The notes below the pieces were generated by a model. It searched no databases, had not been told where the DNA came from, and saw nothing but the letters and a program-made list of their open reading frames with translations. Shown piece after piece: positions 13,146 to 37,725 of a DNA stretch of 64,000 bases. The translations under genes were made by a program, and so were the position numbers. Positions within the stretch are counted from its first letter, which is position 1. The number at the start of each line of letters is the position of its first letter. The DNA is from Candidatus Micrarchaeota archaeon (GTDB lineage Archaea > Micrarchaeota > Micrarchaeia > Micrarchaeales > Micrarchaeaceae): the NCBI GenBank assembly GCA_027317945.1, contig DAHVQB010000001.1:9348-73347 (forward strand), written 5' to 3'.

Positions 13146-13397
13146 CTAGAGTATCTTGAGTACCGCATCAAGCAGGCCGTGTGCATATGAAATGCACGAA
13201 AATGACGTATAAAGGTCGTTCTTGTTGAGATAGCTCTGCGAATCGCTGGCATACATCTTGGATAGTTCGACAACCTCCCCTATCCTCTTGTCGAGCGGCA
13301 TTTTTGCCTCTATCGACTTTATGTTTTCATGGAACATTGCGATATCCTTGCTTATGCGCTTTACTACGGGATCATCAGTTTTGTTCTCGGTCATCAT
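13146..13397 (-). CDS. DUF357-family small protein
   Basis: 83 aa. The C-terminal pattern YASDSQSYLNKNDLYTSFSCISYAHGLLDA resembles the DUF357 signature (Y..D...f...gD...a.....YahGwLDa). Confidence 0.5.
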   Translation of the reverse strand: MMTENKTDDPVVKRISKDIAMFHENIKSIEAKMPLDKRIGEVVELSKMYASDSQSYLNKNDLYTSFSCISYAHGLLDAVLKIL

Positions 13398-13450
13398 GCC
13401 ACCATGCTATTATTTATAGTTTGATTAGCAAGATTTAAAATTGTGGTTTA

Positions 13451-14047: not shown

Positions 14048-14062
14048 TTCGACAGTGCTATA

Positions 14063-16051: not shown

Positions 16052-16078
16052 AAACTCAGCTATACATGGCTAAAAAAC

Positions 16079-16092
16079 CTTAAATACTTTTA
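16079..16092 (+). promoter_or_regulatory. TATA-box-like element upstream of tRNA-Ala
   Basis: CTTAAATACTTTTA lies about 25-30 nt upstream of position 16111. Confidence 0.35.
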
Positions 16093-16110
16093 AATCAAAC
16101 AGTTCAGCAT

Positions 16111-16182
16111 GGGCTCGTGGCTCAGTAGTAGAGCGTTCCGTTCGCAACGGAAAGGTCGCGGGTGCGATTCCCGCCGAGTCCA
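16111..16182 (+). tRNA. tRNA-Ala(CGC), no intron, CCA not encoded
   Basis: Acceptor GGGCTCG/CGAGTCC contains the G3:U70 alanine identity pair. Anticodon arm TTCCG-TTCGCAA-CGGAA; T arm GCGGG-TGCGATT-CCCGC. Confidence 0.9.
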
Positions 16183-16225
16183 CATGAGTATTTCATAAAC
16201 AACAAAAGTCGCATTCCTTAGAAAC

Positions 16226-17749
16226 ATGCCGGGAATAACGCCTGATGGGATTTTATCTTTTCTTAGCCAAAATGATAATAGGATTCAAACCCATCCCCTG
16301 CGAATGGCGATTGATACGGTAGATTTGAAAGTTTCACTGTCTGGGTTGCTGCAGTATGCAGCAATGGTAATTATATTTGTGCTTGCCCTGGTTGCAATAC
16401 TCACAATGTACGGAATGGGTGGCGTGCAGTGGGACTTCATCGCCCACTGGCTTAGTGCAAGGTCGTTGGTCACTCCAGCATTCTATTCCACGCTGCTGAA
16501 TGGCAATCTTGCCAATGCCATACTATATTCCAATTCCTTCTATTTCGAAACGCTGAGGGCTCCGCTAACGGGCGTTATGATGATACCATTCGTAGCACTG
16601 GGCGGCAATGGCGCCGTGCCTGTCTACTTTGCCTCGGTGCTATCGTTCCTCCTGCTATCCGCTATCTACATTTCCCGCAAGTTTGAGATTCCCCCGTTGA
16701 TACTGGTACTGCTGATATTTACTCCGTATGTAGCACTTTTCCTGCTGCTGCTCAATGGCACTGAGATTGTATCAATGGGCATCATGCTGGTAGCCGTAGC
16801 ACTTCTTTTGAAGAATGATTGGAAATCAGGAATCGCAATAGGCTTGGCAGGGCTGGCGAAATACCCCAACCTCATATTCATTCCATTGATTTTCCTGCTG
16901 CCGCGCAAGGAAAGGTACAAAGCCTTCCTGGCAGCTTTTCTTGTTAGCTTACCGTGGCTTCTATTCAACACCGCAGTGTATCATATCCCGATATTCAGCT
17001 ACATAATTTCGGTAGGTGCATTTTCAGGGGGAGGCACAAATAATGGGTACTTCCCGATAGCTGTGATGCTACAGTCACTCTGGTTGATACTGCCGGAGCT
17101 TGCGCCAGCGCTCTTGATATTGGTTGTGGCGATGATCACAAATAGCGGTAAAGGTGCCGCTTGGCTCAAGTGTCCTTGGAAGCGGTTGACAACGCTCAAG
17201 CTCGATTATAGATACAAGGTAATCCTATGTTTCTTAGGGTTAGGGGTTCTTGCCTGGTTGCTTACCGCCATAAGGGGCTCTATCAATGATCTGCCAAGGC
17301 TAGGTTACCTCATATATGGGGGCTTGGCATTGTTGTTTGCAGTTTCAATCCATGACCTATTCACTAAATGGCATGTTACCAGGCTCGTCTATGTATCTTA
17401 TGTGTCTGTCTTGTTTGTAATAATGGCAGCGATATTAATCACATGGACACCATATACGGGATACGTGTTTAGAGGGTCATCAAATCCTACTCTGCTAGCA
17501 GCAGAAAGTGCGATAAATGGTTCGGGGATCTCGAAGTGCAACATGGTGTCTAACAACTGGGTCTATCTAATATATGCAGGGTATAAAGCACATTTTCCAT
17601 ACTACTACAACTTTACAGTGCAACATTATCCTATTGTCTACTTTACTGACCTTGGCGCGAACAACACGGCTGTGAACTTTGCCAATATGACTAAGGAACT
17701 GAAATATCCAGGTCTATTAGTCGCCTTCCCTAAGAATTATACGTGCTAA
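16226..17749 (+). CDS. Polytopic integral membrane protein, possibly a GT-C-fold glycosyltransferase
   Basis: 507 aa with more than 10 predicted hydrophobic helices and a short soluble C-terminus carrying sequons (NFT, NNT, NMT, NYT). The functional call is weak. Confidence 0.4.
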   Translation: MPGITPDGILSFLSQNDNRIQTHPLRMAIDTVDLKVSLSGLLQYAAMVIIFVLALVAILTMYGMGGVQWDFIAHWLSARSLVTPAFYSTLLNGNLANAILYSNSFYFETLRAPLTGVMMIPFVALGGNGAVPVYFASVLSFLLLSAIYISRKFEIPPLILVLLIFTPYVALFLLLLNGTEIVSMGIMLVAVALLLKNDWKSGIAIGLAGLAKYPNLIFIPLIFLLPRKERYKAFLAAFLVSLPWLLFNTAVYHIPIFSYIISVGAFSGGGTNNGYFPIAVMLQSLWLILPELAPALLILVVAMITNSGKGAAWLKCPWKRLTTLKLDYRYKVILCFLGLGVLAWLLTAIRGSINDLPRLGYLIYGGLALLFAVSIHDLFTKWHVTRLVYVSYVSVLFVIMAAILITWTPYTGYVFRGSSNPTLLAAESAINGSGISKCNMVSNNWVYLIYAGYKAHFPYYYNFTVQHYPIVYFTDLGANNTAVNFANMTKELKYPGLLVAFPKNYTC

Positions 17750-18407
17750 TTCCCTGCTACTATAAAGCCGTATAAATACTGTCATATCAATACGTTGGGT
17801 ATGCCATATAAATCGCAGCGGTACTGGTAATAATTAGGTATGTTGAGCTGACATACTCTCCTATCTCAAGGATAGGAGGTTCTCGGTGATTCAATGACCA
17901 CTTCATATTTTAGAGAACATTACCAGTTTCAAGGCCGCAGAGCATCCTTGCGTTGCCTTTCTGGGCGTATCAGTGCTGCCCTTGCATGCATCCCTGTCTG
18001 TATTCAATCGGGATATGCCCTTATTCAGCATCTTTGGATGGATGCTGAAACATTCCCTACTGTGGATTTCGTGCCACAGCACATCAACCTGACGCATCCT
18101 GCACTCAATTCTGAATACTCGTTTCGGATGTGCTTCAGACATATGCAGGGGACATTGATGATATTATGACGGCAAACCATAAAAGCACGCATTCATCCCT
18201 TATCTAAAGGACAAGGGCTTTCTGCTATTCATTCTGTAAAGATAGTGCTAAGGAAGAACAGGCAGTACCATTCCCTAGCGATATCATTACTGCAGAGGGG
18301 AACAGTTGTAGCAATGCTTGCAACACTTCTGTATTCAATGGCATTGGAAATGACTATTTCAACAAGATATTCTACATGTCATTCCTTCTGCTGATACTTA
18401 CAAACAT

Positions 18408-18743
18408 GCTTCATGGAACAGGTTTATGCAAATGCTTTCATACAAGGCTGAAAGTGCTGGTTTGAGTGTAGTCAAGGTGGATGCAAGGAACACCTCAAAG
18501 GAATGCAGTAGTTGTGGTAACATTCGGGAGATGCCACTCTCGGAAAGAGCGTACATCTGCCAGAGATGCGGAATGTCAAAGGACAGGGACATAAACGCAT
18601 CAATAAACATACTCAACAGAGCTACCCCCGGACAGAGGGAAAGTCACGCCCAGGGAGAGAACGTAAGACCCCAACAGGAGGCGACTCCCGGCGAACTGGG
18701 AACCGATAAAACACATCCTTTGCGGGATGCAGCGATTGCATGA
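18408..18743 (+). pseudogene. tnpB: 5'-truncated tnpB (IS200/IS605, IS1341-type) remnant
   Basis: Only the C-terminal RuvC-III/Zn-ribbon part is present: ASWNRFMQMLSYKAESAGLSVVKVDARNTSKECSSCGN...CQRCG...DRDINASINILNRA. It is colinear with the second copy at 52119-52565. An in-frame stop lies just upstream at 18351. Confidence 0.75.
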
Positions 18744-18789
18744 ACGCAGAGGAAGCCCACGCCGTTCACGGGTGGGGAATGTCACCACA
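18600..18789 (+). ncRNA. Candidate TnpB omega-RNA (reRNA) scaffold / right end of IS remnant
   Basis: It shares sequence blocks with copy 2 (GTCACGC.CAGGGAGAG...GTAAGACCCCAAC.GGAGGC; GGAAGCC; GGAATGTCACCACAT). The hairpin CCCAC(18755-18759)/GTGGG(18771-18775) is matched in copy 2 by CCAAC/GTTGG, a compensatory change. Boundaries are approximate. Confidence 0.45.
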
Positions 18790-18825
18790 TAAAGTGCCTT
18801 TACCGCGGCTTTTTGGGATGGTTGC

Positions 18826-19920
18826 ATGAATGGTATTGGCAAAACTGGGAAGAAAAGAAGTTTTTGGTTCACTATAACCCATACAAAAAGCATGACGGCT
18901 GAAGAATACAAGAGTACCATAAATAAAGTAATAACTACAGTGGCCCTGGTTTTCATAGTAAGCGCATTCGTTTTCATAGGCATAGCCATATTCGGCGGCA
19001 TAGGGCAAGTCGTAAGCACCATACTGCATTCTAACCTTTACTTATACGCCCTTGCGTTCGCATCGGTATTCTTGGGGTACCTTGTGAGCTTCGGAAAATG
19101 GGCTTACTTTATGAGGAAGCTGCATGTGAAGGTGCCGCTTAAGAAGAATCTCGCAGTATACTTGTCACTTTATTCCATGGACCTGACGCCAGGCAAGATA
19201 GGCAGGGTAGTAACTGCCTACACGATGAGCAGGATAGCAAAGATAAAGGTCTTCAATGTGCTGCCCATAGTTGCCATGGATACGGTGACGGACTTTCTTG
19301 GTGCGGCGATAGTCGCACTTGCTGCTGCCATTTATTTCAATCAATTCTTGTGGATAGTGGTTGTAGCGGACTTGGTGTCCATATTCCCTGCATTTTTCGT
19401 GATAAACGACTGGTTTTTCAGGATACTGCAGAAGGCATTTAAGAAAAGCAGCTACTTGGACATGATAACCATGTATGGCGAGGAATACTTCAGCTCGCAG
19501 AGCAAGCTAAACAAGCCGAGGGTATATCTGGTGTCGCTGATGTTCACCATACCATCTGCTATACTCTATTCGCTGGCGCTCTATTTTGTGATAATGGCGG
19601 TCACGCAAGTGCCGCACATAGGCGCCGTTGCCCCTCCACCCCTGGGCCACACAGTGCTCATATATTATACCGCGCAGGTAGTTGGTTCCATGACTTCGCT
19701 GCCAGGCAACATAGGGGTTACGGATGGGGTGCTCGTAGCTACGCTGAACAGCGTGCTAGGCTTCAACAATTATACCAGCTCGGCGATAACCATCATGACA
19801 AGAATCGCCACGCTGTGGTTTGGGGTGCTTATAGGCGGCGCATTCCTGCTCTATACGTTCCGCTATTGGAACCCTACAAAGCACGAGCTAAGGCGCTTTA
19901 GAAAAAACAGAAACAGATAG
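18826..19920 (+). CDS. UPF0104 / lysyl-phosphatidylglycerol-synthase-TM-like (flippase-like) membrane protein
   Basis: A multi-pass membrane protein. The C-terminal motif MTSLPGNIGVTDGVLVATL resembles the UPF0104 signature (lP.tPGG.Gv.E). The true start may be the internal M at 18892. Confidence 0.55.
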   Translation: MNGIGKTGKKRSFWFTITHTKSMTAEEYKSTINKVITTVALVFIVSAFVFIGIAIFGGIGQVVSTILHSNLYLYALAFASVFLGYLVSFGKWAYFMRKLHVKVPLKKNLAVYLSLYSMDLTPGKIGRVVTAYTMSRIAKIKVFNVLPIVAMDTVTDFLGAAIVALAAAIYFNQFLWIVVVADLVSIFPAFFVINDWFFRILQKAFKKSSYLDMITMYGEEYFSSQSKLNKPRVYLVSLMFTIPSAILYSLALYFVIMAVTQVPHIGAVAPPPLGHTVLIYYTAQVVGSMTSLPGNIGVTDGVLVATLNSVLGFNNYTSSAITIMTRIATLWFGVLIGGAFLLYTFRYWNPTKHELRRFRKNRNR

Positions 19921-19949
19921 GAAAATTAAAAAATCAGGAATAGTGATGA

Positions 19950-20321
19950 TTAGGCCTCCTCAGATTCGTCAGGATCCATGCTCATCTCTTCGTCATCGCC
20001 TTTCGGCTCTTCCGGCGCAGCGCCGTCTCCCTTTTCGATGACCTTTATCTTGCCGAACTTGCCCGTCGAAAGCTGCGGCGTGCCCCTGAATTCGCCAACG
20101 TAACCGTTGGTTATCTCTACGGTATCACCGATGTTGACATCGTTTATGTCGCTGCCCCAAAGGGACATGGCGATCGTTCCTGAATCGTCCTGAAGTGTTA
20201 TATTGGCAACGCTCAGCCTCTTACCATACTTCGACATGACTTCCCTCGGATCGCTCTTCTCAGTGACCTTCGCCTGTATGGTGACGTTGCTAGCTCCTGT
20301 CTTTAATTCGATTATTTTCAT
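19950..20321 (-). CDS. ssb: Single-OB-fold ssDNA-binding protein with acidic C-terminal tail
   Basis: VTIQAKVTEKSDPREV..GKRLSVANITLQDDSGTIAMSLWGSDINDVNIGDTVEITNGYVGEFRGTPQLSTGKFGKI matches the crenarchaeal-type SSB OB fold. The tail is DDEEMSMDPDESEEA. The ATG at 20321 has GGAGAT upstream; the ORF track starts at TTG 20345. Confidence 0.7.
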   Translation of the reverse strand: MKIIELKTGASNVTIQAKVTEKSDPREVMSKYGKRLSVANITLQDDSGTIAMSLWGSDINDVNIGDTVEITNGYVGEFRGTPQLSTGKFGKIKVIEKGDGAAPEEPKGDDEEMSMDPDESEEA

Positions 20322-24564: not shown

Positions 24565-25641
24565 ATGCTGCAGTTTCCTCTAACACCGATGTCGCCTTCA
24601 ACAGAGGCAATCATACTTATCATAGGAGTGCTTTATCTGGGGCTTTCGCTGGCAATGCAGAGGAAGCTTGTCAATGTGCACAGGATGAGAGAGCTCAGGA
24701 TGAAGATGGGCGACCTGCAGAAGGAGCTTAATGCCATGATAAAGAGCAAGGCTCCCCAGGAAGCGATAACGGCCAAAAACAAGGAATTGATGCCTATAGC
24801 GGGGGAGCAGATGCGCAGTTCCCTGAAACCAATGCTGATAATACCAATCTTCCTCATACTCTACTACTACGCCCTGCCTCTGGAATTCGGTAGTGTTGCA
24901 GTCGTGGTCAATGGAGCCACGTACCAGGCGCCGTATGCGATCGCCGTGAACAGCTCGGCAGTCTACAGCTATTCGTTCCAGTCGTCGGCAGCAGGCTATA
25001 CTTTTGTAAACTCGACCAACGGCTGCACGGGCATATCTGGGGTAGGGGCGTCTGGGACCATCAATGGCAGCAAAATCACTGGCAACTGCACGATCGAGGG
25101 CTTTTACAACGTAAACGGCGTTGGATTTGGCACCAGCATAAACGACAATCAGGTGTCAAAGGACATCGCCTTGAACGTATCCTATTCAGGCACAAATTAC
25201 TCGTACCTAAACAATCAGCTCCCAATTTCGTTCGGCTCCGCTTCCGGATCCATAAGGTACTCATACGCCAGATCCATCAATACAAGTGGGGGGAGCTACA
25301 ATTTCTCACACGTGGAGGGGTGCGGCTACAATTCCAGCAATAGCGCAGGGGTGCTGAACTTTACCGATACAAAAACACCTTGCTTGGTTACCGGTTACTA
25401 TACCGCAGAACCTGCCGCCGGAGCGCAGCAGGCCGGCTCGTCTACGCATTACGTGACATTCATAGGCAATTTGGGCAAGACCACAGGAACCGCGTTGATA
25501 TTAATGCCGCTCAATTACCAGAGCCTGTTCTTTTACCCAGTGCTTGTACTGGGGCTGATCGCATCGTTAGTGATAATGAAATATGACAGCAACAAGATAA
25601 AGCAGATGAGGATAGCCAAGGAGATAGGGCAGGATAAGTGA
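24565..25641 (+). CDS. DUF106/EMC3-like (archaeal YidC/Oxa1-like insertase candidate) with a large extracytoplasmic insertion
   Basis: TM1, then a coiled coil (QRKLVNVHRMRELRMKMGDLQKELNAMIK), then TM2, as in DUF106, and at the conserved position after adkA. About 200 aa of S/G/N/Y-rich, sequon-rich sequence is inserted before the last TM. Confidence 0.6.
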   Translation: MLQFPLTPMSPSTEAIILIIGVLYLGLSLAMQRKLVNVHRMRELRMKMGDLQKELNAMIKSKAPQEAITAKNKELMPIAGEQMRSSLKPMLIIPIFLILYYYALPLEFGSVAVVVNGATYQAPYAIAVNSSAVYSYSFQSSAAGYTFVNSTNGCTGISGVGASGTINGSKITGNCTIEGFYNVNGVGFGTSINDNQVSKDIALNVSYSGTNYSYLNNQLPISFGSASGSIRYSYARSINTSGGSYNFSHVEGCGYNSSNSAGVLNFTDTKTPCLVTGYYTAEPAAGAQQAGSSTHYVTFIGNLGKTTGTALILMPLNYQSLFFYPVLVLGLIASLVIMKYDSNKIKQMRIAKEIGQDK

Positions 25642-26971: not shown

Positions 26972-28081
26972 TCAGATGGTGCCTGTACTCTTCTCCTTGT
27001 CAGGTTTCTTGCTTACTTCCACGGCGTGCTCCTTCACCGCATTGCGCTGGGCCAGGTAAACTGACAGCTTCTGCTCCTCTGTGGAAAGCTGATTCTGCGC
27101 CATTCTGAGCTGTTTTCTGGCCTTGGCAACGTAGTCATGCATTTCCGTTACGGACTTTTCAAGCGTTTGCATATCATCCTTGCTAAGCGATATGGCGCCC
27201 TTTCTTGCCTCTTCTAGCTTCTTAGACCTGGACTGCTCCTCATTGCCTGCCATCTTTACCTGTATGCTAAGAGTTGCAACCTCAAAGGCAGCATACGACG
27301 TAGGCAGCAATGCGCTGACATAATCGCTCAGTGCCTTGCTCATGTCTGTAGGCCTTATTGACTTGTGCAGCATCGTAGGCGTCTTGTCTGCCTTGTTGAC
27401 GTCCCATTCGTATACGGGCCATCCCACGCCCTTGTTCTTATCTATAAACGTTTGTATGAGCGTGTAATTTATTGCTGCGGCATCCTCCCTGCTCCTGCCA
27501 TTGTAGTCAGGGTAGTTGGCTAATATCTCGTCCAGAACCATCTGGGAACGCGGATCCGGCCCGACTGCCACGCTCTCATCATACCTTAGCCTTGTGAAAC
27601 TAGCTACGGGCGCTGCTACAAGCTCTACCGATTCCTCCATGTGGTCTGCGTCCTTTACCTTCAAGGTAGGCTTTGGCGTGTAATCTATCCCAAGTTCGGT
27701 CTCGAAAGACTTAACCTGCCCTCCTGAATTCACCGATACAAGAAGCATGGCGTGGCGTCCTTCAGGGGGCTGGCCAAATATGGATGCTTCCTTGTTCGCT
27801 TCGCTTTTAAGCTCGTTTGATACGGCATGCAGACCTGCGTTTACATCCGATATGTGATCCTCCAAATCGTCATTCGGGTACTTTGCAAGCACTTCCTGCA
27901 GCACCTTTATGCCCTCCGTGGCGACATACAAGTCACCGGCCATCTGGACTATCACGTTAGTGTTGCCTATCTGGACTATCTTCTTGAAATCCTCTTGGTA
28001 ATCGTCTAGCCATATGGATACTTTGCTGTCAGCAGCTATGACTCTGCCATCTTTGTAAGCAACATTCGAAATAGTAGTCAT
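26972..28081 (-). CDS. Proteasome-beta/HslV-type Ntn hydrolase domain fused to a C-terminal coiled-coil region
   Basis: M-TTISNVAYKDGRVIAADSKVS...FKKIVQIGNTNVIVQMAGD. Counting from Thr after Met, Thr1, Asp17 and Lys33 are all present. VAVGPDPRS replaces the GSGS loop. The last 80 aa or so are heptad-like and K/E/Q-rich. Confidence 0.65.
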   Translation of the reverse strand: MTTISNVAYKDGRVIAADSKVSIWLDDYQEDFKKIVQIGNTNVIVQMAGDLYVATEGIKVLQEVLAKYPNDDLEDHISDVNAGLHAVSNELKSEANKEASIFGQPPEGRHAMLLVSVNSGGQVKSFETELGIDYTPKPTLKVKDADHMEESVELVAAPVASFTRLRYDESVAVGPDPRSQMVLDEILANYPDYNGRSREDAAAINYTLIQTFIDKNKGVGWPVYEWDVNKADKTPTMLHKSIRPTDMSKALSDYVSALLPTSYAAFEVATLSIQVKMAGNEEQSRSKKLEEARKGAISLSKDDMQTLEKSVTEMHDYVAKARKQLRMAQNQLSTEEQKLSVYLAQRNAVKEHAVEVSKKPDKEKSTGTI

Positions 28082-28156
28082 GCAATTCTACCTCAAATTA
28101 TCTATCCTGCTTAAGGTATTTAAATTGCTCGTATTAGCGGATTTGGCGCAAATCTG

Positions 28157-29341
28157 TCATTTCTTCGGCTTGGAAAGGCCTGAAAGCATACGCATAGCCT
28201 CAGGAAAGCTGCGCTTTCCGTTTAGGCCCTCATACGCGAAGTTCAAATCCGCACCTTTTTGGATCAGCAGCTCGGCAATTTTGGGGTGGCCCATGAATGC
28301 AGCCCACATCAGGGCGCTTTGGCCCGTCTTGTCCTTGCAGTTAACGTCAGCGCCCATATCTATCAACAATCTTGCGCTTTCGAGATTCCCGTAAGCAACG
28401 GACGAAATGAATGCGGTGTTCAGCAGGTTGGCTATGTGCCAGCGTATGCCTATTCTCGGGCCGATTTTGGCTGAGACGCTGAAGCCATCTTTCGTCCTGG
28501 TGAACTTGCCTGAAAGCCCGTAGTTTTCCTCATGCTTCAGCTTTGCATCCCCCAATCTTAGATTGCAGGAGAATTTTATCTCGCCGAACTTGACAAGCAT
28601 TTGCTCCGCCTTTGCGTACGGCACGGCTTCGATGTCCGAATAGTCCGATGGGAAGAACGGCTGCGATGTCAATACACCGGACGATTGGCTGCCGTTGAAT
28701 GAGAGATCGCTGCAGATTACCTTCCACTCAACCATCCTAGTCACGCAGGAATTTACGAAAACGTTGAATATGCGCTCCATTGCTGATTCTATGTCGGCGC
28801 CATTACTGAACGATATGGAGCTTATCCAATACGAGCCGAAATCCTCGTATGTTTCCATCGGCTTGAAAACTGCACCATTGTCTATTAACATGCGGGCGAA
28901 TTCGAGGTGGCCGTTTGATGTTGCTATACAGAGCGCGGTCCATCCCTTCCGATCCCTTGCGTTGACGTCAGCCTTAGCGCCGATGATGAGCTTGCCTATG
29001 TCCATGCTGCCTTCGTACGCTGCCCGCATTAGCGCGGTGCCGCCGCCTATGTCATCGGAGTCGGGATCCGCACCCTTTTTAAGAAGCAGTTTCACCAGCG
29101 CGGCATGCCCGCCTTTTGATGCCTTCATCAATGGAGTTTCTCCAATCGCATTGGCATAATTCACATTTGCGCCTTGGGTGATCTCCTTGTTGGCCTCTGC
29201 GATATCTCCATTTATTATGGCGCTTATCAGCGGCGTGCTGCGGTCTGAATTCCTTGAACCTGGCTTCAATCCGTCCCTCTTCATATACGGAAAACCCTCG
29301 CTGGCTTTGCCATCGCTTGATTGTGCAGACATGCTATCCAA
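28157..29341 (-). CDS. Ankyrin-repeat protein (4 + 2 repeats) interrupted by a non-ankyrin domain
   Basis: ANK consensus segments are GETPLMKASKGGHAALVKLLLKKGADPD, GGTALMRAAYEGSMDIGKLIIGAKADVNARD, KGWTALCIATSNGHLEFARMLIDNGA and, at the C-terminus, GQSALMWAAFMGHPKIAELLIQKGADLN. The central 150 aa or so have no ANK pattern. Confidence 0.8.
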   Translation of the reverse strand: MDSMSAQSSDGKASEGFPYMKRDGLKPGSRNSDRSTPLISAIINGDIAEANKEITQGANVNYANAIGETPLMKASKGGHAALVKLLLKKGADPDSDDIGGGTALMRAAYEGSMDIGKLIIGAKADVNARDRKGWTALCIATSNGHLEFARMLIDNGAVFKPMETYEDFGSYWISSISFSNGADIESAMERIFNVFVNSCVTRMVEWKVICSDLSFNGSQSSGVLTSQPFFPSDYSDIEAVPYAKAEQMLVKFGEIKFSCNLRLGDAKLKHEENYGLSGKFTRTKDGFSVSAKIGPRIGIRWHIANLLNTAFISSVAYGNLESARLLIDMGADVNCKDKTGQSALMWAAFMGHPKIAELLIQKGADLNFAYEGLNGKRSFPEAMRMLSGLSKPKK

Positions 29342-29359: not shown

Positions 29360-29536
29360 TCAGGCCATGATCGTCGCTGCTTCAGGCGCTTTTAATGAGT
29401 ACTGCGGTTTGCTGCATAGGCATCCCTCCTGCTGGCACAGATCCGAATAATGAGTCGGGCCTTCATCGAAGTGCCATAGCGCATTTTCGTATTCTGTGAC
29501 ATGATGCCCGCATTTCTGGCAGGCGTGTAGATCCAT
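29360..29536 (-). CDS. Small Cys/His-rich (Zn-ribbon-like) protein
   Basis: MDLHACQKCGHHVTEYENALWHFDEGPTHYSDLCQQEGCLCSKP. It starts 18 nt upstream of the ankyrin gene on the same strand. GTG 29545 is an alternative start. Confidence 0.45.
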   Translation of the reverse strand: MDLHACQKCGHHVTEYENALWHFDEGPTHYSDLCQQEGCLCSKPQYSLKAPEAATIMA

Positions 29537-29640
29537 CTTGGTCACCTATATTATTTGAATCTCAATAAAGGTTTTTATCGCTATCTATTTGGCGCATCCA
29601 TTGGAAAATCAGCGAGGCGGTAAAGGCCGTTCTAGTAAGG

Positions 29641-32246: not shown

Positions 32247-33344
32247 TCATCTATCTATCTCAGCGAGTACCAGGTCAAGGCTGCCCATTATCGAGAATAT
32301 GTCTGCAAACTTTACCCCGTCGCACAGCTTGGAAAGCACTGAAAGGTTTACGAAAGTAGGGGACCTCAGGGATATCCTGTATGGCTTCTGCTTGTCAGGT
32401 ATCATGTATATCAGGCCCTCGCCCCTGGGCAGCTCCCTCCTCGTTATTATCGTATCGGGCTTTGCAGCGGGCCCTATCAGCTTTATCGGGGCCCCGACAA
32501 CATCCGCATCGTCCGGCATCATAGAAAGGCACTGGCGTATTATCTTCGTGCTTTGCAGTATCTCTTCGAACCTGACCTTGTACCTGTCGAACGAATCGCC
32601 GTTGTACTTGACGGGTACGTCGAATTTGAGCTTATCGTAAACATAGTATGGTTGGGACCTCCTTACGTCTTCCTTTACCCCTGATGCCCTGAGCACAGGG
32701 CCGGACACGCCGTAGTTTATGGCATCCTCCTTGCTCAGGACGCCTATTCCCTTCGTCCTCTCTAGGAAGATCTCGTTCTTATCCAGTATCTCTATGTATT
32801 CCGGCATTGTCTTTTCTATGTAGTCTATCAATGCGAGTGAGCGCTCCTTGAAGTCTTTTGGCAGCGGCTGGTAAAGGCCGCCCAGCCTCATGTTTACATA
32901 GAACATCCTGCTTCCGGCGACATCCTCAAGGAGCTTTATCACCTTTGATCTGTCCCTGAACGCCCACATGAACGTAGTGAACATCTGCCCAAGGTCGCTT
33001 GCCAATGTGCCCATCCAGAGCAGGTGGCTTGCGATTCTTTGAAATTCTAGCAGTATGACGCGGGCGTATTGCGCGCCTTCCTTCACCGGTATGCCCATAG
33101 CCTGTTCAACTGCTGCAACGTATAGCTCGTCCCACGATAGGGGCGCTATATAATCAAGCTTTTCCATGTATGACGGATTCTGCATATACATCCTGGTCTC
33201 GCAAAGCTTCTCTACGCCCCTGTGGAGGAAGCCTATGTGCGGTTCAACCAATTTTACCGTATCGCCGTCGACGTCGACTACGAGGCGCAGCACTCCGTGA
33301 GTGCTCGGGTGCACAGGTCCAACATTTATTCGAACTACAGCCAT
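32247..33344 (-). CDS. nuoD: NADH-quinone oxidoreductase subunit D (49 kDa)
   Basis: MAVVRINVGPVHPSTHGVLRLVVDVDGDTV... ends in LVLAEIDR. The ATG overlaps the nuoC stop (TAATG). Confidence 0.9.
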   Translation of the reverse strand: MAVVRINVGPVHPSTHGVLRLVVDVDGDTVKLVEPHIGFLHRGVEKLCETRMYMQNPSYMEKLDYIAPLSWDELYVAAVEQAMGIPVKEGAQYARVILLEFQRIASHLLWMGTLASDLGQMFTTFMWAFRDRSKVIKLLEDVAGSRMFYVNMRLGGLYQPLPKDFKERSLALIDYIEKTMPEYIEILDKNEIFLERTKGIGVLSKEDAINYGVSGPVLRASGVKEDVRRSQPYYVYDKLKFDVPVKYNGDSFDRYKVRFEEILQSTKIIRQCLSMMPDDADVVGAPIKLIGPAAKPDTIITRRELPRGEGLIYMIPDKQKPYRISLRSPTFVNLSVLSKLCDGVKFADIFSIMGSLDLVLAEIDR

Positions 33345-33724
33345 TAAACAGCCTTCTTGTATTCCTTGCCCCATACGAAGCTCTTCCGAAGCGGGAACTC
33401 AACGCCATTCCACTCCTCAAGCAGAAGGCGCTTTATCTTCCTGCCGTTGATCTTTATGCCGAACATCTCGCACAGTTCGCGCTCGTACCAGTCTGCGGCA
33501 TTGTATAAGTGTATGATTGTGTCTATTTCGGGCTCGTTTGGATCAAGTTTGACTTTTAGCACCTCCATCTGCTTCGTTGAGGTGTTGTAAAGAACGTACA
33601 CTACCTCCAAGTGCGTGACATAGTCGACGGCGGTTATCTTGTTTAGATAATCAAACCCTCGCTCCTTCATGTCTTTGCATGTTTTCACTAACGCTTCTTT
33701 CGTTATTTCCTGCAACCTTACCAC
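33344..33724 (-). CDS. nuoC: NADH-quinone oxidoreductase subunit C (30 kDa), short form
   Basis: ADWYERELCEMFGIKING...PLRK is the NuoC signature. At 126 aa it is short, and it overlaps the nuoB 3' end by 74 nt. Confidence 0.75.
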   Translation of the reverse strand: MVRLQEITKEALVKTCKDMKERGFDYLNKITAVDYVTHLEVVYVLYNTSTKQMEVLKVKLDPNEPEIDTIIHLYNAADWYERELCEMFGIKINGRKIKRLLLEEWNGVEFPLRKSFVWGKEYKKAV

Positions 33725-34337
33725 TTATTTTATCTTGCAACTTCATGAGCGCCCCGAATAGGTTTTCCGGTTTCGGAGGACAGCCGCATGCGTACACATC
33801 AACCGGCAGCACCTGGTCTATGCCCTGTATTATGTTGTAGCTCTCCCACCACGGGCCGCCTGCAGTAGCGCACTCCCCGTATGCCACCACATATTTTGGG
33901 GAGGCCATCTGCTCATAAAGGCGCTTTATCCTGGGGACCATTGACTTTGTGACCCAGCCTGCCACTATCATGACATCGCACTGCCTTGGGGTGCCCCTGA
34001 ACAACAGGTATCCCTTGCGCTCCGCGTCTATCCTTTCCGCGCCGAAGTCCATCAATTCTATGGCACAGCAGGCAAGCCCGAACTGCAGAGGCCAAAGGGA
34101 GTTTGTGCGGCCCCACGTTATAACGTCCTTTACCAGCGGAGCCATCTTTGACAGGTCGCTCAGCTTTGCGAACACAGCGTTCACGGGCGTCTTGGGCTCG
34201 CCTTCCTTCTCCGACTCTGTCAGCAGTTTTGTCATCTCCTTTTCGGCATTCATGAACTGCTCGACAGTGTATGGGGCGTTTGGCACTTTGCGCGATAGAT
34301 ACTCGGCGGGCACTTCATCTTCAGACATTTGGATCAC
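33651..34337 (-). CDS. nuoB: NADH-quinone oxidoreductase subunit B (PSST, N2 cluster)
   Basis: SLWPLQFGLACCAIE, GECATAGGPW and CGCPPKPE are cluster ligand motifs. There is an N-terminal extension of about 60 aa. Confidence 0.9.
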   Translation of the reverse strand: MIQMSEDEVPAEYLSRKVPNAPYTVEQFMNAEKEMTKLLTESEKEGEPKTPVNAVFAKLSDLSKMAPLVKDVITWGRTNSLWPLQFGLACCAIELMDFGAERIDAERKGYLLFRGTPRQCDVMIVAGWVTKSMVPRIKRLYEQMASPKYVVAYGECATAGGPWWESYNIIQGIDQVLPVDVYACGCPPKPENLFGALMKLQDKISGKVAGNNERSVSENMQRHEGARV

Positions 34338-34677
34338 TTATGAATTTATATGAGATAAGTCCAAAAAGCATCGCAACTACCACCATGCCCACCATTTCAA
34401 GGCCGGAGTAGTAGCTGACGGACCTGGCAACGGACGCCCATAGGAGCACGACCACTGAGATTATCTCGAATGGCAGGAACATGGCGAAGATAGGCAGGTA
34501 TTCCACCTGGACCACCAACCCCTCGCCTATGGTCTCTTCTGCACTTTCGTAGGGTGCGTTCTTTACCTTGTTCTTCGGGACCCTGCGCCTTAGCGATATT
34601 GATGTCAGCAGGAGAGAGTACGGGATGAAAAGCGCCATGCCTATGAATATTAGTAATGCCAGATAATTGTAAAACAT
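34321..34677 (-). CDS. nuoA: NADH-quinone oxidoreductase subunit A
   Basis: A 118-aa three-helix membrane protein with the motif KNAPYESAEE (YECG-like region), at the first position of the ABCD block. Confidence 0.8.
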   Translation of the reverse strand: MFYNYLALLIFIGMALFIPYSLLLTSISLRRRVPKNKVKNAPYESAEETIGEGLVVQVEYLPIFAMFLPFEIISVVVLLWASVARSVSYYSGLEMVGMVVVAMLFGLISYKFISDPNV

Positions 34678-34895: not shown

Positions 34896-35705
34896 ATGCT
34901 TTTTGTCTACTCGAGCGAGGACGCAGTGTCCATTGGGGCAGCCGATGAGCTCAAGAGCATGCTCAACATGGAGCATGATATGGAGATAGATGGGAATATG
35001 CACTTTAGGCAGGGCGATGGCCTGGAGATGCTCGGGGTAGGGACAAGGCTCGTTGATGCGGATTACGTAGAGAGGCTGGTAAAGACCGATTTCATAGTAT
35101 TCCTGAGCAAACACAGCAGCGCGGCAGGGGTGCCTGCCTTCACGGTGCATTCCGAAGGCAACTGGAGCGATGCTGCGGCATTGGGCGGGGCCGCTAAAGA
35201 GCTAAGCGTTGCCGCGCCGGTGCAGATGAAGGGATTTTTGGCCGCCTTGCATGCGGCTGCCTCTGAAGCGAAGGTGGATGTGCAGGTCGTGTATGAAGCC
35301 ACACACCATGGGCCCCTGCTGAAAACGCCGTCCTTCTTCGCGGAGCTTGGCGGCAATGTTGAAACAACGCAGGACACGCGCTTAATCGGGGTACTCGCCG
35401 AAGCCGCGGAAAGATTCACGCACCCGGAAGGCGATACCATGGATTATGACAAAATCGCAGTGTACATTGGCGGCATGCATTATGCGAGGCGCGCAACGGA
35501 ACTCGCATTGAATAAAGACTATGCCTCGGCGCACATAATGCCAAAACATTACGTTGATAACGTTGAGTTATTGGAACAGGCGTTTTCCAGATCGTCAGTT
35601 AAGCCCGAAATCGCCCTCATAGAGTGGAAAAGCATAAATGCTGATAAGAGGAATAAGGTACTACGAAAGCTCGAGGATATGGGTCTTGACCATGAGAGGG
35701 TATAA
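34896..35705 (+). CDS. dtdA: D-aminoacyl-tRNA deacylase, archaeal type
   Basis: MLFVYSSEDAVS..., FLSKHSSAAGVPAFTVHSEGNW and YEATHHGP match the DtdA family. An upstream in-frame ATG at 34848 is an alternative start. Confidence 0.75.
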   Translation: MLFVYSSEDAVSIGAADELKSMLNMEHDMEIDGNMHFRQGDGLEMLGVGTRLVDADYVERLVKTDFIVFLSKHSSAAGVPAFTVHSEGNWSDAAALGGAAKELSVAAPVQMKGFLAALHAAASEAKVDVQVVYEATHHGPLLKTPSFFAELGGNVETTQDTRLIGVLAEAAERFTHPEGDTMDYDKIAVYIGGMHYARRATELALNKDYASAHIMPKHYVDNVELLEQAFSRSSVKPEIALIEWKSINADKRNKVLRKLEDMGLDHERV

Positions 35706-37725
35706 TCCCGCTTACTTACTCATCGCGATTATAGCAATAACAGCCCTGTCGGCCCAAGCAGGTGCAGCATACTGGTTCCAGAGCGGCGCCAGAGGCTCTG
35801 ACAAAGCGTATTATAACACCGGCGCCAGCGCACAGATAGAGACCATTGCCCCACAGAACCTGACTATAGGGTCATTTGGATTCTGGGTGGGGGAAACCAT
35901 ATCCAACAATGCGTTCATACAGGTTGGATATGTGATACCTAACCAGAGCGGCTATTATCCGACAAACTGCACTGTAGGCCCTAATGATACGGCTACCTGC
36001 GCCAAAGGCATTTACTTGTCCGAGGGAACGCCGTCGTGGTTTTGGGAGTACTTCCCAAGCAGCGGCAATAGGACCGCTTTCTACGGCGGTTATGGTCCTG
36101 CCGGTTCGGCAGGGAAGAATGGCACATTCAACACATACTCGTTCCAAGCCGACGGCAACACATGGAATGTTTACTTCAACCAGCAGCTCATAGGCAGCGT
36201 CGACCTCGGCGTGCCTGGGTCCGGGGGGAATGCGCCGGAAGCGATAGCGGAGTACGCGGACACCAACACAAACGCCACATTCATGAAGGAGGTGCAGTTC
36301 AAGAATGTGCAATTTAGGTCAGGCGGACAGTTCTTGCCCATGTCTGCGGGATACGCTTACATAAGTTACGGAAAGGGCAGCCAGACAGAACTGAAGAATC
36401 TTTATGGCGTGGCGGAGGTTGGGCAGTACGTCAACAACTTTAAGGTAGGATCAAACATCAACGTGCCTCCTGACTCAATGCAGCTATGGGGACTCGGATA
36501 TTATTTAAACGTCTCTTCCAGCGTGGCCAACACGAGCAGTTCGGGCAAATACGATGCATACTCAAACGTGCAGCTACGAATGCCGCGCATCGCCAATGTA
36601 TCGCCCGGGGTTAGGGAGGTCTTTGAAGGATGGAGAGGCAGTGGCTCCGGTTCATACACTGGCAATTCCACATCGATAACGGTAAGCATGTACAGCAACA
36701 TAAGTGAGACGGTGATATGGCAGAAGCAGTATATGCTCAACATCATCTCAGAATACGGGAGCGTGCTGAACGTGCCAGGCGGGACTTGGTACAACGCAGG
36801 GTCGGTTGCAAGATTCTCTGTGAACCAGACGGTCCTGCCCATAAGTTATGGTTCGCGCGCAATGTTTGAGGGATGGAGCACGAACGAGAGCTCTGCTAAT
36901 GGGATGACAGCGATTAATGGACCGACCAATGTTACCGCTTATTGGGTGACCCAGTACCTGGTTAATGCGACAAGCGTTTATGGTAATACGTTAGGATCTG
37001 GATGGTACAACGCCAACAGCCTGGCGGCCGTAAGCGTGGACACGCTGACAATACCGATAAACAACGAAAGCAGGATGGAATTCATAGGTTGGAGCAATGG
37101 AGACGGCGGTGCACTCTTGAATGTACTGGTAAGCGGCCCGGTGTTCATACACGCTAATTATGCGGAGCAATATCTTGTCAACTTCACTGCAACAGACGCC
37201 TATGGGAATGCCATAACGCCGGACTATGTGGTGGTATCGAACCAAGTGATATATGGCCCCTCATTCCTTTATGGAAATACGCAGTATGAGCTGCAGTATG
37301 CAGGGTTTGATGGCGCGCGGATGGGCGTAAACAGGACATTTAGCATAAGCGGGCCGATGTCCATAAACTCACAGTTGCCTGTTTACAAAGTCAATATAAC
37401 AACGGAGAGCTGGCTCGGGCAGCCCGTGAATGCCAGCATAAATCTGACGTTCTCAAATGGCACGGTGCTGAGATCGTACTTGGGCCCCACAGGCAACCGC
37501 CAGTTCGGCGAGGTGCCGTATGGCTCGATAAGCGGCAGCATGGAATACTTTTTTGTAACGGAGAAGGTTGATCTAAGGAACGGGGAGAACCTGAAGCTTA
37601 ATTTCATAACGCCCGGCGCCATAGGTGCAATAGTGGTAGCGCTCTTTGCGATAGGGCTCTCCATTAGGGCGTTGATCAAGATAGAGAAGGAGCATGAAAA
37701 TGAGGCGAGCACCAAGAAGAAGTGA
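35692..37725 (+). CDS. Secreted, C-terminally anchored surface protein with divergent InlB-B-repeat-like modules
   Basis: The signal-like N-terminus is MRGYNPAYLLIAIIAITALSAQAGA. F/W-G-W modules repeat (VFEGWRGSGSGSYTG, MFEGWSTNESSANG, MEFIGWSNGDGG). There are many sequons, and a C-terminal TM (GAIGAIVVALFAIGLSI) with a basic tail. Confidence 0.6.
   Translation: MRGYNPAYLLIAIIAITALSAQAGAAYWFQSGARGSDKAYYNTGASAQIETIAPQNLTIGSFGFWVGETISNNAFIQVGYVIPNQSGYYPTNCTVGPNDTATCAKGIYLSEGTPSWFWEYFPSSGNRTAFYGGYGPAGSAGKNGTFNTYSFQADGNTWNVYFNQQLIGSVDLGVPGSGGNAPEAIAEYADTNTNATFMKEVQFKNVQFRSGGQFLPMSAGYAYISYGKGSQTELKNLYGVAEVGQYVNNFKVGSNINVPPDSMQLWGLGYYLNVSSSVANTSSSGKYDAYSNVQLRMPRIANVSPGVREVFEGWRGSGSGSYTGNSTSITVSMYSNISETVIWQKQYMLNIISEYGSVLNVPGGTWYNAGSVARFSVNQTVLPISYGSRAMFEGWSTNESSANGMTAINGPTNVTAYWVTQYLVNATSVYGNTLGSGWYNANSLAAVSVDTLTIPINNESRMEFIGWSNGDGGALLNVLVSGPVFIHANYAEQYLVNFTATDAYGNAITPDYVVVSNQVIYGPSFLYGNTQYELQYAGFDGARMGVNRTFSISGPMSINSQLPVYKVNITTESWLGQPVNASINLTFSNGTVLRSYLGPTGNRQFGEVPYGSISGSMEYFFVTEKVDLRNGENLKLNFITPGAIGAIVVALFAIGLSIRALIKIEKEHENEASTKKK

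What the first reader, a model, noticed from the sequence alone, without database searches (positions are those of the whole stretch)
26972..28081. Orphan proteasome-beta-type Ntn hydrolase with intact catalytic residues, no propeptide and a coiled-coil tail
The protein starts M-TTISNVAYKDGRVIAADSK. After Met removal it has Thr1, Asp17 (AAD) and Lys33 (FKK) at exactly the spacing of 20S beta subunits and HslV, followed by the QMAGD (AG oxyanion) segment.

It differs from canonical subunits in three ways:
- The GSGS loop is replaced by GPDP.
- The domain is followed by about 150 extra residues ending in a K/E/Q-rich heptad-like region.
- It is not next to any proteasome alpha, PAN or HslU gene.

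The architecture fits none of the proteasome homologue classes I know (20S beta, HslV, Anbu, BPH, connectase).
Basis: partly seen in the sequence, partly recalled or inferred. Interest (0 to 1): 0.75.

Follow-up and report, generated by a model that had tools for sequence, protein, structure and literature searches.

The report
Divergent proteasome-like threonine hydrolase, coiled-coil tail
A real, conserved gene of a tiny symbiotic archaeon (Micrarchaeota) encodes a very divergent relative of the proteasome's catalytic subunit with a long coiled-coil tail; it is an interesting but uncharacterised extra member of a protein family already known to have many such offshoots.

Summary
The ORF is at 26972-28081 on the minus strand and encodes 369 aa starting MTTISNVAYKDGRVIAADSK. 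An in-frame stop 9 nt upstream of the ATG excludes a propeptide.

A family profile matches proteasome beta subunits over the whole mature domain (hhalign 97%, E 3e-11). Thr2, Asp18, Lys34 and Gly49 align to Thr1, Asp17, Lys33 and Gly47. An AlphaFold model built from family sequences only (pLDDT 88) hits 20S beta subunits and Anbu (Foldseek E ~6e-9, prob 1.00).

The tail is about 125 residues, not 150. It is a predicted helical hairpin with a significant heptad repeat.

The interpretation "fits no known class" is only partly right. Fuchs, Alva and Lupas (2021) described 22 further proteasome-like families. [quoted passage not shown] In these families, absence of a propeptide and of an AAA+ partner is normal. 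I could not test ACC membership.

New details:
- The family is tiny and found only in Micrarchaeota-type genomes assembled from metagenomes (MAGs).
- It has long (369-391 aa) and short (288-296 aa) paralogs, adjacent in one genome.
- The Ser129/Asp166/Ser169 shell appears to be replaced by Pro/Asn/Val.
- An ankyrin gene is linked in 4 of 5 lineages.

The most likely function is an ATP-independent Thr1 hydrolase that oligomerises through its tail. Interest is moderate.

The parts
26972..28081 (-). Complete CDS, 369 aa plus stop: the 'long' proteasome-like (T1) homolog
   Evidence: ORF list. Full-length orthologs at 89, 70, 41, 33 and 31% identity. dN/dS 0.14.
28076..28081 (-). ATG-ACT: initiator Met plus Thr2, the predicted N-terminal nucleophile after Met removal
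   Evidence: Sequence. Thr2 aligns to mature residue 1 of active beta subunits. Invariant in the family.
28088..28090 (-). In-frame TAG stop 9 nt upstream of the ATG, which excludes a propeptide
   Evidence: Read directly from the sequence.
28117..28124 (-). TTTAAATA, an archaeal TATA-box-like element 35 nt upstream of the ATG. A GAGGT Shine-Dalgarno-like motif lies at 28090-28094. Possible own promoter (inference only).
   Evidence: Sequence read. No experimental or statistical test was made.
27347..28081 (-). T1 / proteasome-beta-like Ntn domain, residues 1 to about 245
   Evidence: hhalign query 1-251 against beta profile 29-225, Prob 97.2%, E 3e-11. AF2 domain model pLDDT 88.3, pTM 0.84. 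Foldseek top hits are 20S beta and Anbu, E ~6e-9, TM 0.55-0.70.
28028..28030 (-). Asp18 codon, equivalent to Asp17
   Evidence: Alignments. Invariant.
27980..27982 (-). Lys34 codon, equivalent to Lys33
   Evidence: Alignments. Invariant.
27935..27940 (-). Ala48-Gly49 codons. Gly49 is equivalent to the oxyanion-hole Gly47, with a one-residue insertion in the preceding turn.
   Evidence: Alignments. Invariant.
27590..27718 (-). Residues 122-164: predicted long two-stranded beta-hairpin, which overlaps the ~38 query residues (about 122-159) with no counterpart in beta subunits
   Evidence: AF2 secondary structure, strands 122-144 and 147-164, pLDDT 78-94. No aligned template residues over roughly 122-159 in hhalign.
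27545..27562 (-). Gly174-Pro-Asp-Pro-Arg-Ser179. Family signature A-x-G-[PV]-D, the probable replacement of the G128-S129-G130 loop.
   Evidence: A172, G174 and D176 are invariant in long and short forms. The segment sits between the last strand and H3. The hhalign register is ambiguous by 3 residues.
27416..27436 (-). Asn216-Lys-Gly-Val219-Gly-Trp-Pro222 loop, aligned to the Asp166...Ser169-Gly170 loop of beta subunits
   Evidence: hhalign columns. N216, V219 and P222 are invariant.
27014..27337 (-). Residues 249-356: two long helices (249-293 and 301-356) joined at Gly295. Predicted helical hairpin or coiled coil.
   Evidence: AF2 full-length model, pLDDT 80-92 in this part. Heptad test: 301-356 gives 0/2000 shuffles, 249-293 gives p~0.03. 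dN/dS of the tail is 0.21.
26975..27013 (-). Residues 357-369: Lys/Ser-rich tail, low confidence, variable between orthologs
   Evidence: pLDDT <50. Alignment.
28157..29341 (-). Ankyrin-repeat protein (394 aa) immediately upstream on the same strand, 75-nt gap. Candidate partner.
   Evidence: Pfam Ank, E 2.5e-38. It is the only ankyrin gene in the window, and an ankyrin gene lies within about 1.1 kb of the long homolog in 4 of 5 lineages in three different arrangements.

Best explanation
The gene encodes a highly divergent member of the proteasome-like (MEROPS T1, PF00227-type) branch of the Ntn hydrolases. It belongs to a very small family seen so far only in Micrarchaeota-type (DPANN) genomes assembled from metagenomes.

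Shown:
- It is a real gene under purifying selection.
- It has the beta-subunit fold.
- Thr2, Asp18, Lys34 and Gly49 are in register with Thr1, Asp17, Lys33 and Gly47 and are invariant down to about 25% identity.
- No propeptide can be encoded.
- The C-terminal ~125 residues form a heptad-patterned helical hairpin.

Inferred:
- Methionine aminopeptidase removes Met1, as in Anbu, exposing Thr as the nucleophile.
- The enzyme works as an ATP-independent threonine peptidase, or possibly a transpeptidase.
- The coiled-coil hairpin drives dimerisation or higher assembly, as Anbu's H5 helix does. Assembly may include the short paralog, which is encoded next to the long form in a related genome.
- Substrate choice may involve the linked ankyrin-repeat protein.
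- The beta-subunit proton-shuttle shell (Ser129, Asp166, Ser169) appears to be replaced by Pro175, Asn216 and Val219. The invariant Asp176 of the A-x-G-[PV]-D loop is a candidate substitute. The chemistry at the Thr1 amine probably differs from that of the 20S proteasome.
For: Gene reality.

Homology:
- Pfam PF00227 is the best hit for all nine family members tested, and is above the gathering score for P0004, P0005 and P0006.
- PHROG 'peptidase HslV family', E 1.7e-5.
- The family profile against PDB gives beta subunits at E 4.9e-6, with query residue 2 aligned to mature residue 1.
- A search of 1.84e9 proteins retrieves a bona fide PF00227 protein, P0010, at E 1.4e-5.
- hhalign gives Prob 96-97%, E 4e-9 to 3e-11, over the full domain.

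Fold: an AF2 model made from family-only sequences has pLDDT 88. Foldseek against PDB gives 20S beta and Anbu, prob 1.00.

No propeptide: in-frame stop.

Met removal precedent and assembly dependent on a C-terminal helix: Anbu (PMC5666114).

Coiled coil.

Paralogs.

Ankyrin linkage.

Role of Ser129/Asp166: PMC4792962.
Against: - No biochemical data exist for this family or any close relative.
- The second-shell substitutions resemble mutations that cripple the yeast proteasome: beta5-D166N drastically reduces activity and archaeal D166A abolishes it. Activity could therefore be low or different.
- The register of the GSG-equivalent loop is uncertain by 3 residues.
- The oligomeric state could not be modelled. 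The long beta-hairpin insertion might be incompatible with closed rings.
- The window protein alone scores below Pfam's cut-off (19 against 22.4 bits).
- Ankyrin and paralog linkage rest on five lineages only. Ankyrin is absent in the P0005 lineage, and long-short adjacency is seen in one lineage.
Confidence: 0.7

Rival explanations
1. [quoted passage not shown] The finding would then add a lineage (Micrarchaeota) but no new family. This rival concerns classification only and is compatible with the mechanism above.
For: ACC is archaeal (Euryarchaeota, Crenarchaeota, 'other archaea') and very small (17 sequences at nr90). It has the catalytic triad, no propeptide and a predicted C-terminal coiled coil. 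On paper that is the same architecture. This family's profile also hits both beta and alpha subunits, as the paper describes for group II, which contains ACC.
Against: The exhaustive profile search returned only 7 proteins at E<=1e-3. The five that I looked up carried no RefSeq accession and were seen only in metagenome or MAG assemblies, whereas the ACC representative is RefSeq WP_161937350.1. This test is weak. E<=1e-3 in 1.84e9 sequences needs about 41 bits, and even the true paralog L001 9323-10186 was missed. No NCBIfam or Pfam model other than generic beta/HslV matched.
Confidence: 0.4
2. It is a substrate-specific transpeptidase or ligase, like connectase, rather than a degradative protease. 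Without the Ser129/Asp166 proton shuttle, the Thr1 amine would be a poorer general acid. The acyl-enzyme could then be resolved by an incoming amine, with the ankyrin protein or coiled coil presenting one specific substrate.
For: Connectase shows that proteasome-like domains can be specific ligases (PMC7980362). Pro175, Asn216 and Val219 replace the second triad. Huber et al. argue that D166N lowers the pKa of Thr1N, impairing turnover while favouring nucleophilicity. The protein is an orphan without an unfoldase.
Against: Connectase's defining features are absent. H1 and H2 are present (51-67 and 73-102), and there is no two-helix lid between S3 and S4. No conserved candidate substrate gene was identified. 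The coiled coil argues for an oligomer, whereas connectase is monomeric.
Confidence: 0.12
3. It is a catalytically dead scaffold, a pseudo-enzyme like proteasome alpha subunits, which keeps the fold for assembly with the short paralog or other partners.
For: Loss of Ser129, Asp166 and Ser169 equivalents. D166A abolishes autolysis and catalysis in the archaeal 20S. Two paralogous subunit types recall the alpha/beta pair.
Against: Thr2, Asp18, Lys34 and Gly49 are invariant in both long and short forms down to about 25% identity, whereas the catalytically inactive alpha subunits carry an N-terminal helical extension instead of an exposed N-terminal threonine. The start of the ORF is kept exactly at Met-Thr in the four other long-form sequences and the three short-form sequences aligned. 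The one exception, P0006, has a 12-residue extension that would need autocatalytic removal. dN/dS of the domain is 0.10.
Confidence: 0.1

Closest known systems
[quoted passage not shown]
   Same: Archaeal. Proteasome-beta-like domain with the Thr1/Asp17/Lys33/Gly47 residues. No propeptide, a predicted C-terminal coiled coil, no AAA+ partner, and a very small family.
   Different: The published ACC representative is a RefSeq protein and ACC occurs in Euryarchaeota and Crenarchaeota. This family was found only in Micrarchaeota-type MAGs. I do not know whether ACC has the long/short paralogs, the beta-hairpin insertion or the A-x-G-P-D loop.
Anbu (bacterial 'ancestral beta subunit'; PDB 5NYW, 5LOX)
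   Same: Among the top structural matches (TM 0.58-0.63, prob 1.00). No propeptide: Thr1 is exposed by Met removal. A C-terminal helix forms a coiled-coil contact that is essential for assembly. No AAA+ partner.
   Different: [quoted passage not shown] None of these is present here. Anbu has a single extended H5, whereas this protein has a ~110-residue two-helix hairpin. Anbu keeps essentially all conserved catalytic residues of beta subunits.
20S proteasome beta subunits (PF00227, MEROPS T1A)
   Same: Best sequence-profile and structural matches. Catalytic Thr, Asp, Lys and Gly are in register. Same order of strands and of helices H1-H4.
   Different: No propeptide. The GSG loop and the Asp166/Ser169 loop are changed. 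There is a ~40-residue beta-hairpin insertion, a longer H2 and a ~125-residue coiled-coil tail. No alpha-subunit gene is nearby, and the score is below Pfam's gathering threshold.
HslV
   Same: Weak profile similarity.
   Different: HslV is a compact bacterial protein of about 175 aa encoded next to hslU, and from my own knowledge it starts Met-Thr-Thr without a long propeptide in many bacteria. Here there is no HslU or other AAA+ gene, and the protein has large insertions and a tail.
Connectase (methanogen protein ligase)
   Same: Orphan archaeal proteasome-like protein without a propeptide. It shows that such domains can have non-degradative chemistry.
   Different: Connectase lacks H1/H2 and has a two-helix insertion between S3 and S4. 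It is monomeric and restricted to methanogens. This protein has H1/H2, no such insertion, and a coiled coil.

Membership tests
Proteasome-like family (MEROPS T1 / Pfam PF00227 sensu lato) | alpha-beta-beta-alpha Ntn sandwich with the beta-subunit order of strands and helices H1-H4 | tested here: met
   AF2 domain model, pLDDT 88.3. Foldseek against PDB gives 20S beta and Anbu, E ~6e-9, prob 1.00, TM up to 0.70.
Proteasome-like family (MEROPS T1 / Pfam PF00227 sensu lato) | N-terminal Thr (or Ser) nucleophile at mature position 1 | tested here: met
   The ORF starts Met-Thr with an in-frame stop upstream. Thr2 aligns to mature residue 1. Actual Met removal was not testable.
Proteasome-like family (MEROPS T1 / Pfam PF00227 sensu lato) | Asp/Glu17, Lys33 and oxyanion-hole Gly47 in register | tested here: met
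   D18, K34 and G49 align in hhalign and are invariant in the family.
Proteasome-like family (MEROPS T1 / Pfam PF00227 sensu lato) | Score above Pfam PF00227 gathering threshold (22.4 bits) | tested here: inconclusive
   The window protein scores 19.0 bits. Orthologs P0006, P0004 and P0005 score 29.6, 27.1 and 26.2 bits and pass.
20S proteasome beta subunit proper | Second-shell residues Ser129, Asp166 and Ser169 (G-S-G loop and D-x-x-S-G loop) | tested here: not met
   The aligned positions are Pro175 (probable), Asn216 and Val219. The register of the first is uncertain by 3 residues.
20S proteasome beta subunit proper | N-terminal propeptide removed by autolysis | tested here: not met
   In-frame TAG 9 nt upstream of the ATG. 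Only the P0006 lineage has a 12-residue extension.
20S proteasome beta subunit proper | Co-assembly with alpha subunits into a four-ring particle | not testable with these tools
   No alpha or beta gene in the window or in the fetched loci. The rest of the genome was not examined.
HslV | Compact ~175-aa subunit encoded with the AAA+ partner hslU | tested here: not met
   369 aa with insertions. No true AAA+ ATPase among the neighbours or the 30 window ORFs scanned.
Anbu | Bacterial; operon with transglutaminase, ATP-grasp and Alpha-E proteins | tested here: not met
   Archaeal MAGs. The neighbours are ankyrin, L14e, cmk, L34e and a Mre11-like protein. The operon definition comes from PMC5666114.
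Anbu | Extended C-terminal helix forming an inter-subunit coiled coil | tested here: inconclusive
   A heptad-patterned helical hairpin is present. Its role in assembly could not be modelled.
[quoted passage not shown] | Archaeal, T1 domain with catalytic triad, no propeptide, predicted C-terminal coiled coil | tested here: met
   against the description in PMC8665760.
[quoted passage not shown] | Clusters by sequence with the ACC representative WP_161937350.1 (KEGG OC.1179207) | not testable with these tools
   The sequence could not be fetched. The exhaustive search returned 7 hits, and the five I looked up carried no RefSeq accession, but its threshold (~41 bits) is too strict to exclude a CLANS-level link.
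Connectase | H1/H2 absent; two-helix lid inserted between S3 and S4 | tested here: not met
   H1 (51-67) and H2 (73-102) are predicted, with no insertion between residues 22 and 43. The definition comes from PMC8665760.

The most novel reading that the evidence does not exclude
Micrarchaeota carry their own two-paralog proteasome-like system, distinct from ACC and the other catalogued families. It consists of a long subunit with a coiled-coil hairpin and a short subunit. Both keep Thr1/Asp17/Lys33, but both have swapped the Ser129/Asp166 proton shuttle for an A-x-G-[PV]-D loop. They assemble into a new quaternary form and use a linked ankyrin-repeat protein as adaptor, possibly with non-hydrolytic (ligase-type) chemistry.
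Probability: 0.15. Interest if true: 0.65.

Novelty: new member of a known kind. Interest (0 to 1): 0.4.

Why it matters
Proteasome-like Ntn hydrolases are a model for how self-compartmentalising proteases evolved, and one offshoot, connectase, has become a useful protein ligase. None of the 22 families catalogued in 2021 appears to have been characterised in the literature I could search.

This Micrarchaeota family has several features that make it a tractable case:
- A natural variant of the active site that lacks the Ser129/Asp166 shuttle.
- A much longer coiled-coil element than Anbu's.
- A long/short paralog pair.
- A candidate ankyrin partner.

It could show how coiled coils and subunit duplication shape assembly in this family, and how protein turnover works in genome-reduced DPANN archaea. 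It does not overturn current views. The 2021 survey explicitly predicted that more such homologs would be found.

Tried and rejected
1. Full-length AF2 with 5 sequences gave a poor domain model (pLDDT 68, N-terminus <50). Its Foldseek hits were dominated by unrelated coiled-coil proteins, with Anbu only at E 3e-3. A domain-only model replaced it.

2. Two metagenome-contig scans, one with the short-form alignment and one with the long-form alignment, found no relatives.

3. tblastn against the plasmid collection found no match.

4. PADLOC gave no hit for the T1 proteins. The ankyrin neighbour's PDC-M72A hit (E 1e-34) covers only ankyrin repeats, and I do not read it as evidence for a defence system.

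5. Attempts to obtain an ACC sequence failed. I tried the paper text, its supplement and an accession search.

6. The short paralog P0009 is not in the window. It shares the value 'longest contig 150275' with the window protein, so it is probably on the same NCBI contig outside the window. The look-ups did not return that contig.

7. I considered the conserved position next to the L14e-cmk-L34e cluster as a functional clue and rejected it. The genes are convergent, the clade is narrow, and in L015 the adjacent 84-aa gene is not L14e.

8. I considered and rejected a chance ORF or a plus-strand gene.

9. A literature search for proteasome content of Micrarchaeota gave nothing usable.
Full report
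**1. The observation**

The interval 26972-28081 holds a single long ORF on the minus strand: 369 aa starting with ATG, sequence MTTISNVAYKDGRVIAADSKVSIWLDDYQEDFKKIVQIGNTNVIVQMAGD.... The plus-strand translation is broken by many stops.

An in-frame TAG lies 9 nt upstream of the ATG (28090-28088), so no propeptide can be encoded. A TATA-like TTTAAATA (28124-28117) and a GAGGT (28094-28090) precede the start. This suggests an own promoter and ribosome-binding site, but that is inference only.

The gene is real. Full-length orthologs exist at 89, 70, 41, 33 and 31% identity. dN/dS against the 70% ortholog is 0.14: 0.10 for the domain and 0.21 for the tail. dS is close to saturation.

**2. The organism and the neighbourhood**

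Three related loci come from MAGs titled Candidatus Micrarchaeota. One cluster member is labelled Marsarchaeota in GenBank.

The window is archaeal housekeeping DNA:
- On one side: thermosome, thymidylate kinase, adenylate kinase, an EMC3/YidC-like protein, L34e, cytidylate kinase and L14e.
- On the other side: an ankyrin protein, a small Zn-ribbon protein, a Mre11-like phosphoesterase, a DHH phosphoesterase, prefoldin beta and nuoD.
- Further out: SecY, SRP54, ThrRS and the CCA-adding enzyme.

No PF00227 protein and no true AAA+ ATPase was found near the gene or among the 30 window ORFs scanned, and tblastn with a beta subunit hits nothing else in the window (precomputed Pfam hits). The 'orphan' statement is therefore correct.

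**3. What the protein is**

Single-sequence searches are weak but consistent:
- PF00227, E 1.2e-3, 19 bits, residues 2-59.
- HslV and archaeal beta NCBIfam models at E ~0.1.
- PHROG 'peptidase HslV family', E 1.7e-5.

Orthologs P0006, P0004 and P0005 pass Pfam's gathering score for PF00227.

An exhaustive profile search of 1.84 billion representative proteins returned only seven proteins. One of them, P0010 at E 1.4e-5, is a bona fide PF00227 beta-type subunit with propeptide and GSG loop.

An eight-sequence family profile against PDB sequences gives 171 hits at E<=10. The best 60 listed are all proteasome beta or alpha subunits or HslV, with the best at E 4.9e-6. In mature active beta chains, query residue 2 aligns to residue 1.

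Profile-profile comparison with a 16-sequence beta-subunit alignment gives two results:
- Prob 96%, E 4e-9, over query 2-228.
- With nine family sequences, Prob 97.2%, E 3e-11, 196 columns, query 1-251 against the whole mature subunit.

An AlphaFold2 model of residues 1-250 used only family sequences, so it is not biased by proteasome alignments. It reached pLDDT 88.3 and pTM 0.84. Its secondary-structure order matches the beta-subunit pattern: strands, H1 51-67, H2 73-102, a three-strand sheet, H3 179-187, H4 198-215, then two strands.

Foldseek against the PDB returned 772 hits at E<=1e-3. The 50 best-ranked are all 20S subunits or Anbu, E ~6e-9, prob 1.00, TM up to 0.70. The refutation criterion stated in the finding (placement outside the Ntn/T1 fold) is therefore not met.

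**4. Active site**

Thr2, Asp18, Lys34 and Gly49 align to Thr1, Asp17, Lys33 and Gly47. They are invariant in all eight aligned long and short family members. There is one extra residue in the turn before the A-G.

The second shell differs. Huber et al. (PMC4792962) describe Ser129 and Asp166, with Ser169, as a proton shuttle for the Thr1 amine. Yeast beta5-D166N is drastically impaired, and archaeal D166A is inactive.

Here the aligned residues are Asn216 and Val219, both invariant. The G-S-G loop is replaced by the invariant signature A172-x-G174-[P/V]-D176.

hhalign places GSG three residues earlier, in a gapped low-confidence stretch.
- The short paralog's 'ATGVDGS' lines up with beta 'ATGSGGK'.
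- The predicted start of H3 fits that register.

I regard the equivalence as probable, not proven. The invariant Asp176 is a candidate substitute for Asp166 (inference). By alignment, the S1-pocket positions 20, 31, 35, 45 and 49 would be Val, Phe, Val, Met and Leu. This hints at a hydrophobic P1 preference (inference, low confidence).

**5. Extra elements**

Two elements lie inside the domain:
- H2 is long, at 30 residues.
- Residues 122-164 are predicted as a long two-stranded hairpin; about 38 of the query residues in this region (roughly 122-159) have no beta-subunit counterpart.

After the domain, which ends at about residue 245, come two helices, 249-293 and 301-356, joined at the invariant Gly295 (pLDDT 80-92 in the full-length model).

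Helix 301-356 carries an unbroken heptad register. Hydrophobic residues fill 88% of a/d positions against 20% elsewhere, and 0 of 2000 shuffles reach this. Helix 249-293 is weaker, p~0.03.

The tail is therefore about 125 residues, not 150.

**6. The family**

Across 5.8 billion clustered proteins and 1.84 billion representatives, I found only these members:
- Long forms, 369-391 aa: the window protein, P0001, P0003, P0004, P0005 and P0006.
- Short forms, 288-296 aa: P0009, P0011, and an unlisted gene at L001 9323-10186.

Short forms keep Thr2, Asp18, the Lys, the A-G and the A-x-G-V-D loop, but lack the long hairpin tail.

In the P0004 genome, the short gene follows the long gene on the same strand after 164 nt. 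P0009 probably lies on the same 150,275-nt NCBI contig as the window protein but outside the window.

An ankyrin-repeat gene lies within about 1.1 kb of the long gene in four of five lineages, in three different arrangements. It is the only ankyrin gene in each locus, including the 64-kb window. The ankyrin proteins are alike only in their repeats, except in the closest pair.

One long form, P0006, has 12 extra N-terminal codons, and the codon before Thr is AGG. That lineage probably needs autocatalytic processing, which argues for a working active site.

**7. Comparison with what is known**

Fuchs, Alva and Lupas (2021, PMC8665760) described 22 more. Relevant points from that paper:
[quoted passage not shown] It has 17 sequences at nr90 and occurs in Euryarchaeota, Crenarchaeota and other archaea.
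- C-terminal coiled coils are also predicted for WPH and some PHI members.
- Propeptides occur only in beta subunits and HslV.
- No genomic context or AAA+ partner was found for any new family.
- More families were expected to exist.

In Anbu, Thr1 is exposed by methionine aminopeptidase, and the extended C-terminal helix is required for assembly (PMC5666114).

I could not obtain an ACC sequence. My indirect test was the exhaustive search, which returned only 7 hits; the five I looked up carried no RefSeq accession. That test is weak, because the E threshold corresponds to about 41 bits and even a true paralog was missed. I put ACC membership at about 40%. Either way, the protein is a new member, or a new small subfamily, of a known kind.

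The papers I found that cite the 2021 survey report no characterisation of ACC or its sister families.

**8. Most likely mechanism**

Shown: the fold, the residues in register, the absence of a propeptide, the heptad tail, and purifying selection.

Inferred:
- Met1 is removed.
- Thr acts as nucleophile, with Lys34/Asp18 as the base pair and Gly49 as the oxyanion hole.
- The enzyme is an ATP-independent peptidase.
- It assembles through the helical hairpin, possibly with the short paralog.
- The ankyrin protein is a possible adaptor.

Because the proton shuttle is replaced, a slower or different reaction such as transpeptidation remains possible (about 12%). A dead scaffold is unlikely (about 10%), given the invariance of the triad in both paralogs.

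**9. Verdict**

[quoted passage not shown] Interest is 0.4.

Noticed in passing
window 47080-47182 (+): A tRNA-Arg(TCT)-like gene whose T-loop seems interrupted by about 28 nt: GCGGGTTCAAAA[TGGGTTTCTTCATAGAAGCATGAAAA]TCCCGC, followed by the 3' acceptor strand CGGGCCC. Rfam matched only 47080-47138 (31 bits) and ARAGORN missed it. Probably a non-canonical intron.
   Followed up: partly
L015 6001-6042 (P0006 gene start): One long-form ortholog has 12 extra N-terminal codons (MKGKVGVAKEKR) before Thr-Thr-Ile. The codon before Thr is AGG, so no alternative start is available. This is a probable short propeptide in a family that otherwise starts Met-Thr.
   Followed up: partly
L001 9323-10189 (+), also L011 11323-12186: A 288-aa short paralog (MTVIAEIPYKDGVLIVADSR...) is encoded 164 nt downstream of the long form on the same strand. 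It had no precomputed Pfam hit. An ankyrin gene follows on the opposite strand at L001 10247-10930.
   Followed up: yes
window 28157-29341 (-): Ankyrin-repeat protein with repeats at both ends and an unassigned middle part (residues ~160-310). It hits the PADLOC candidate family PDC-M72A (E 1e-34) through its repeats only.
   Followed up: partly
window 29360-29545 (-) and L001 7672-7911: A small Cys-rich (Zn-ribbon-like) protein conserved between two lineages (40% identity, E 1e-15). It lies between the Mre11-like gene and the ankyrin/T1 genes and has no Pfam family.
   Followed up: partly
window 24565-25641 (+): The EMC3/YidC-like membrane insertase homolog carries an insert of about 200 residues rich in N, S, G, T and Y. 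Only residues 15-112 match PF01956.
   Followed up: no
window 35-2605 (+), 16226-17749 (+), 35638-37725 (+): Three large ORFs (856, 507 and 695 aa) have no Pfam family at E<=1e-5. The 695-aa one is syntenic with a ~677-aa gene, also without Pfam hits, in related MAGs.
   Followed up: no
window 32247-34677 (-): By synteny with related MAGs, complex-I-like nuoA, B, C and D genes are followed directly by prefoldin beta, DHH and Mre11-like genes rather than by further nuo genes. Only nuoD was scanned by Pfam in the window itself.
   Followed up: no
window 10001-20000 and 46001-54000: G+C is lower (0.44-0.47) than in the rest of the window (0.49-0.54). These stretches hold glycosyltransferases, a C39-like peptidase, a tRNA methyltransferase, SRP54 and a GTPase.
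   Followed up: no
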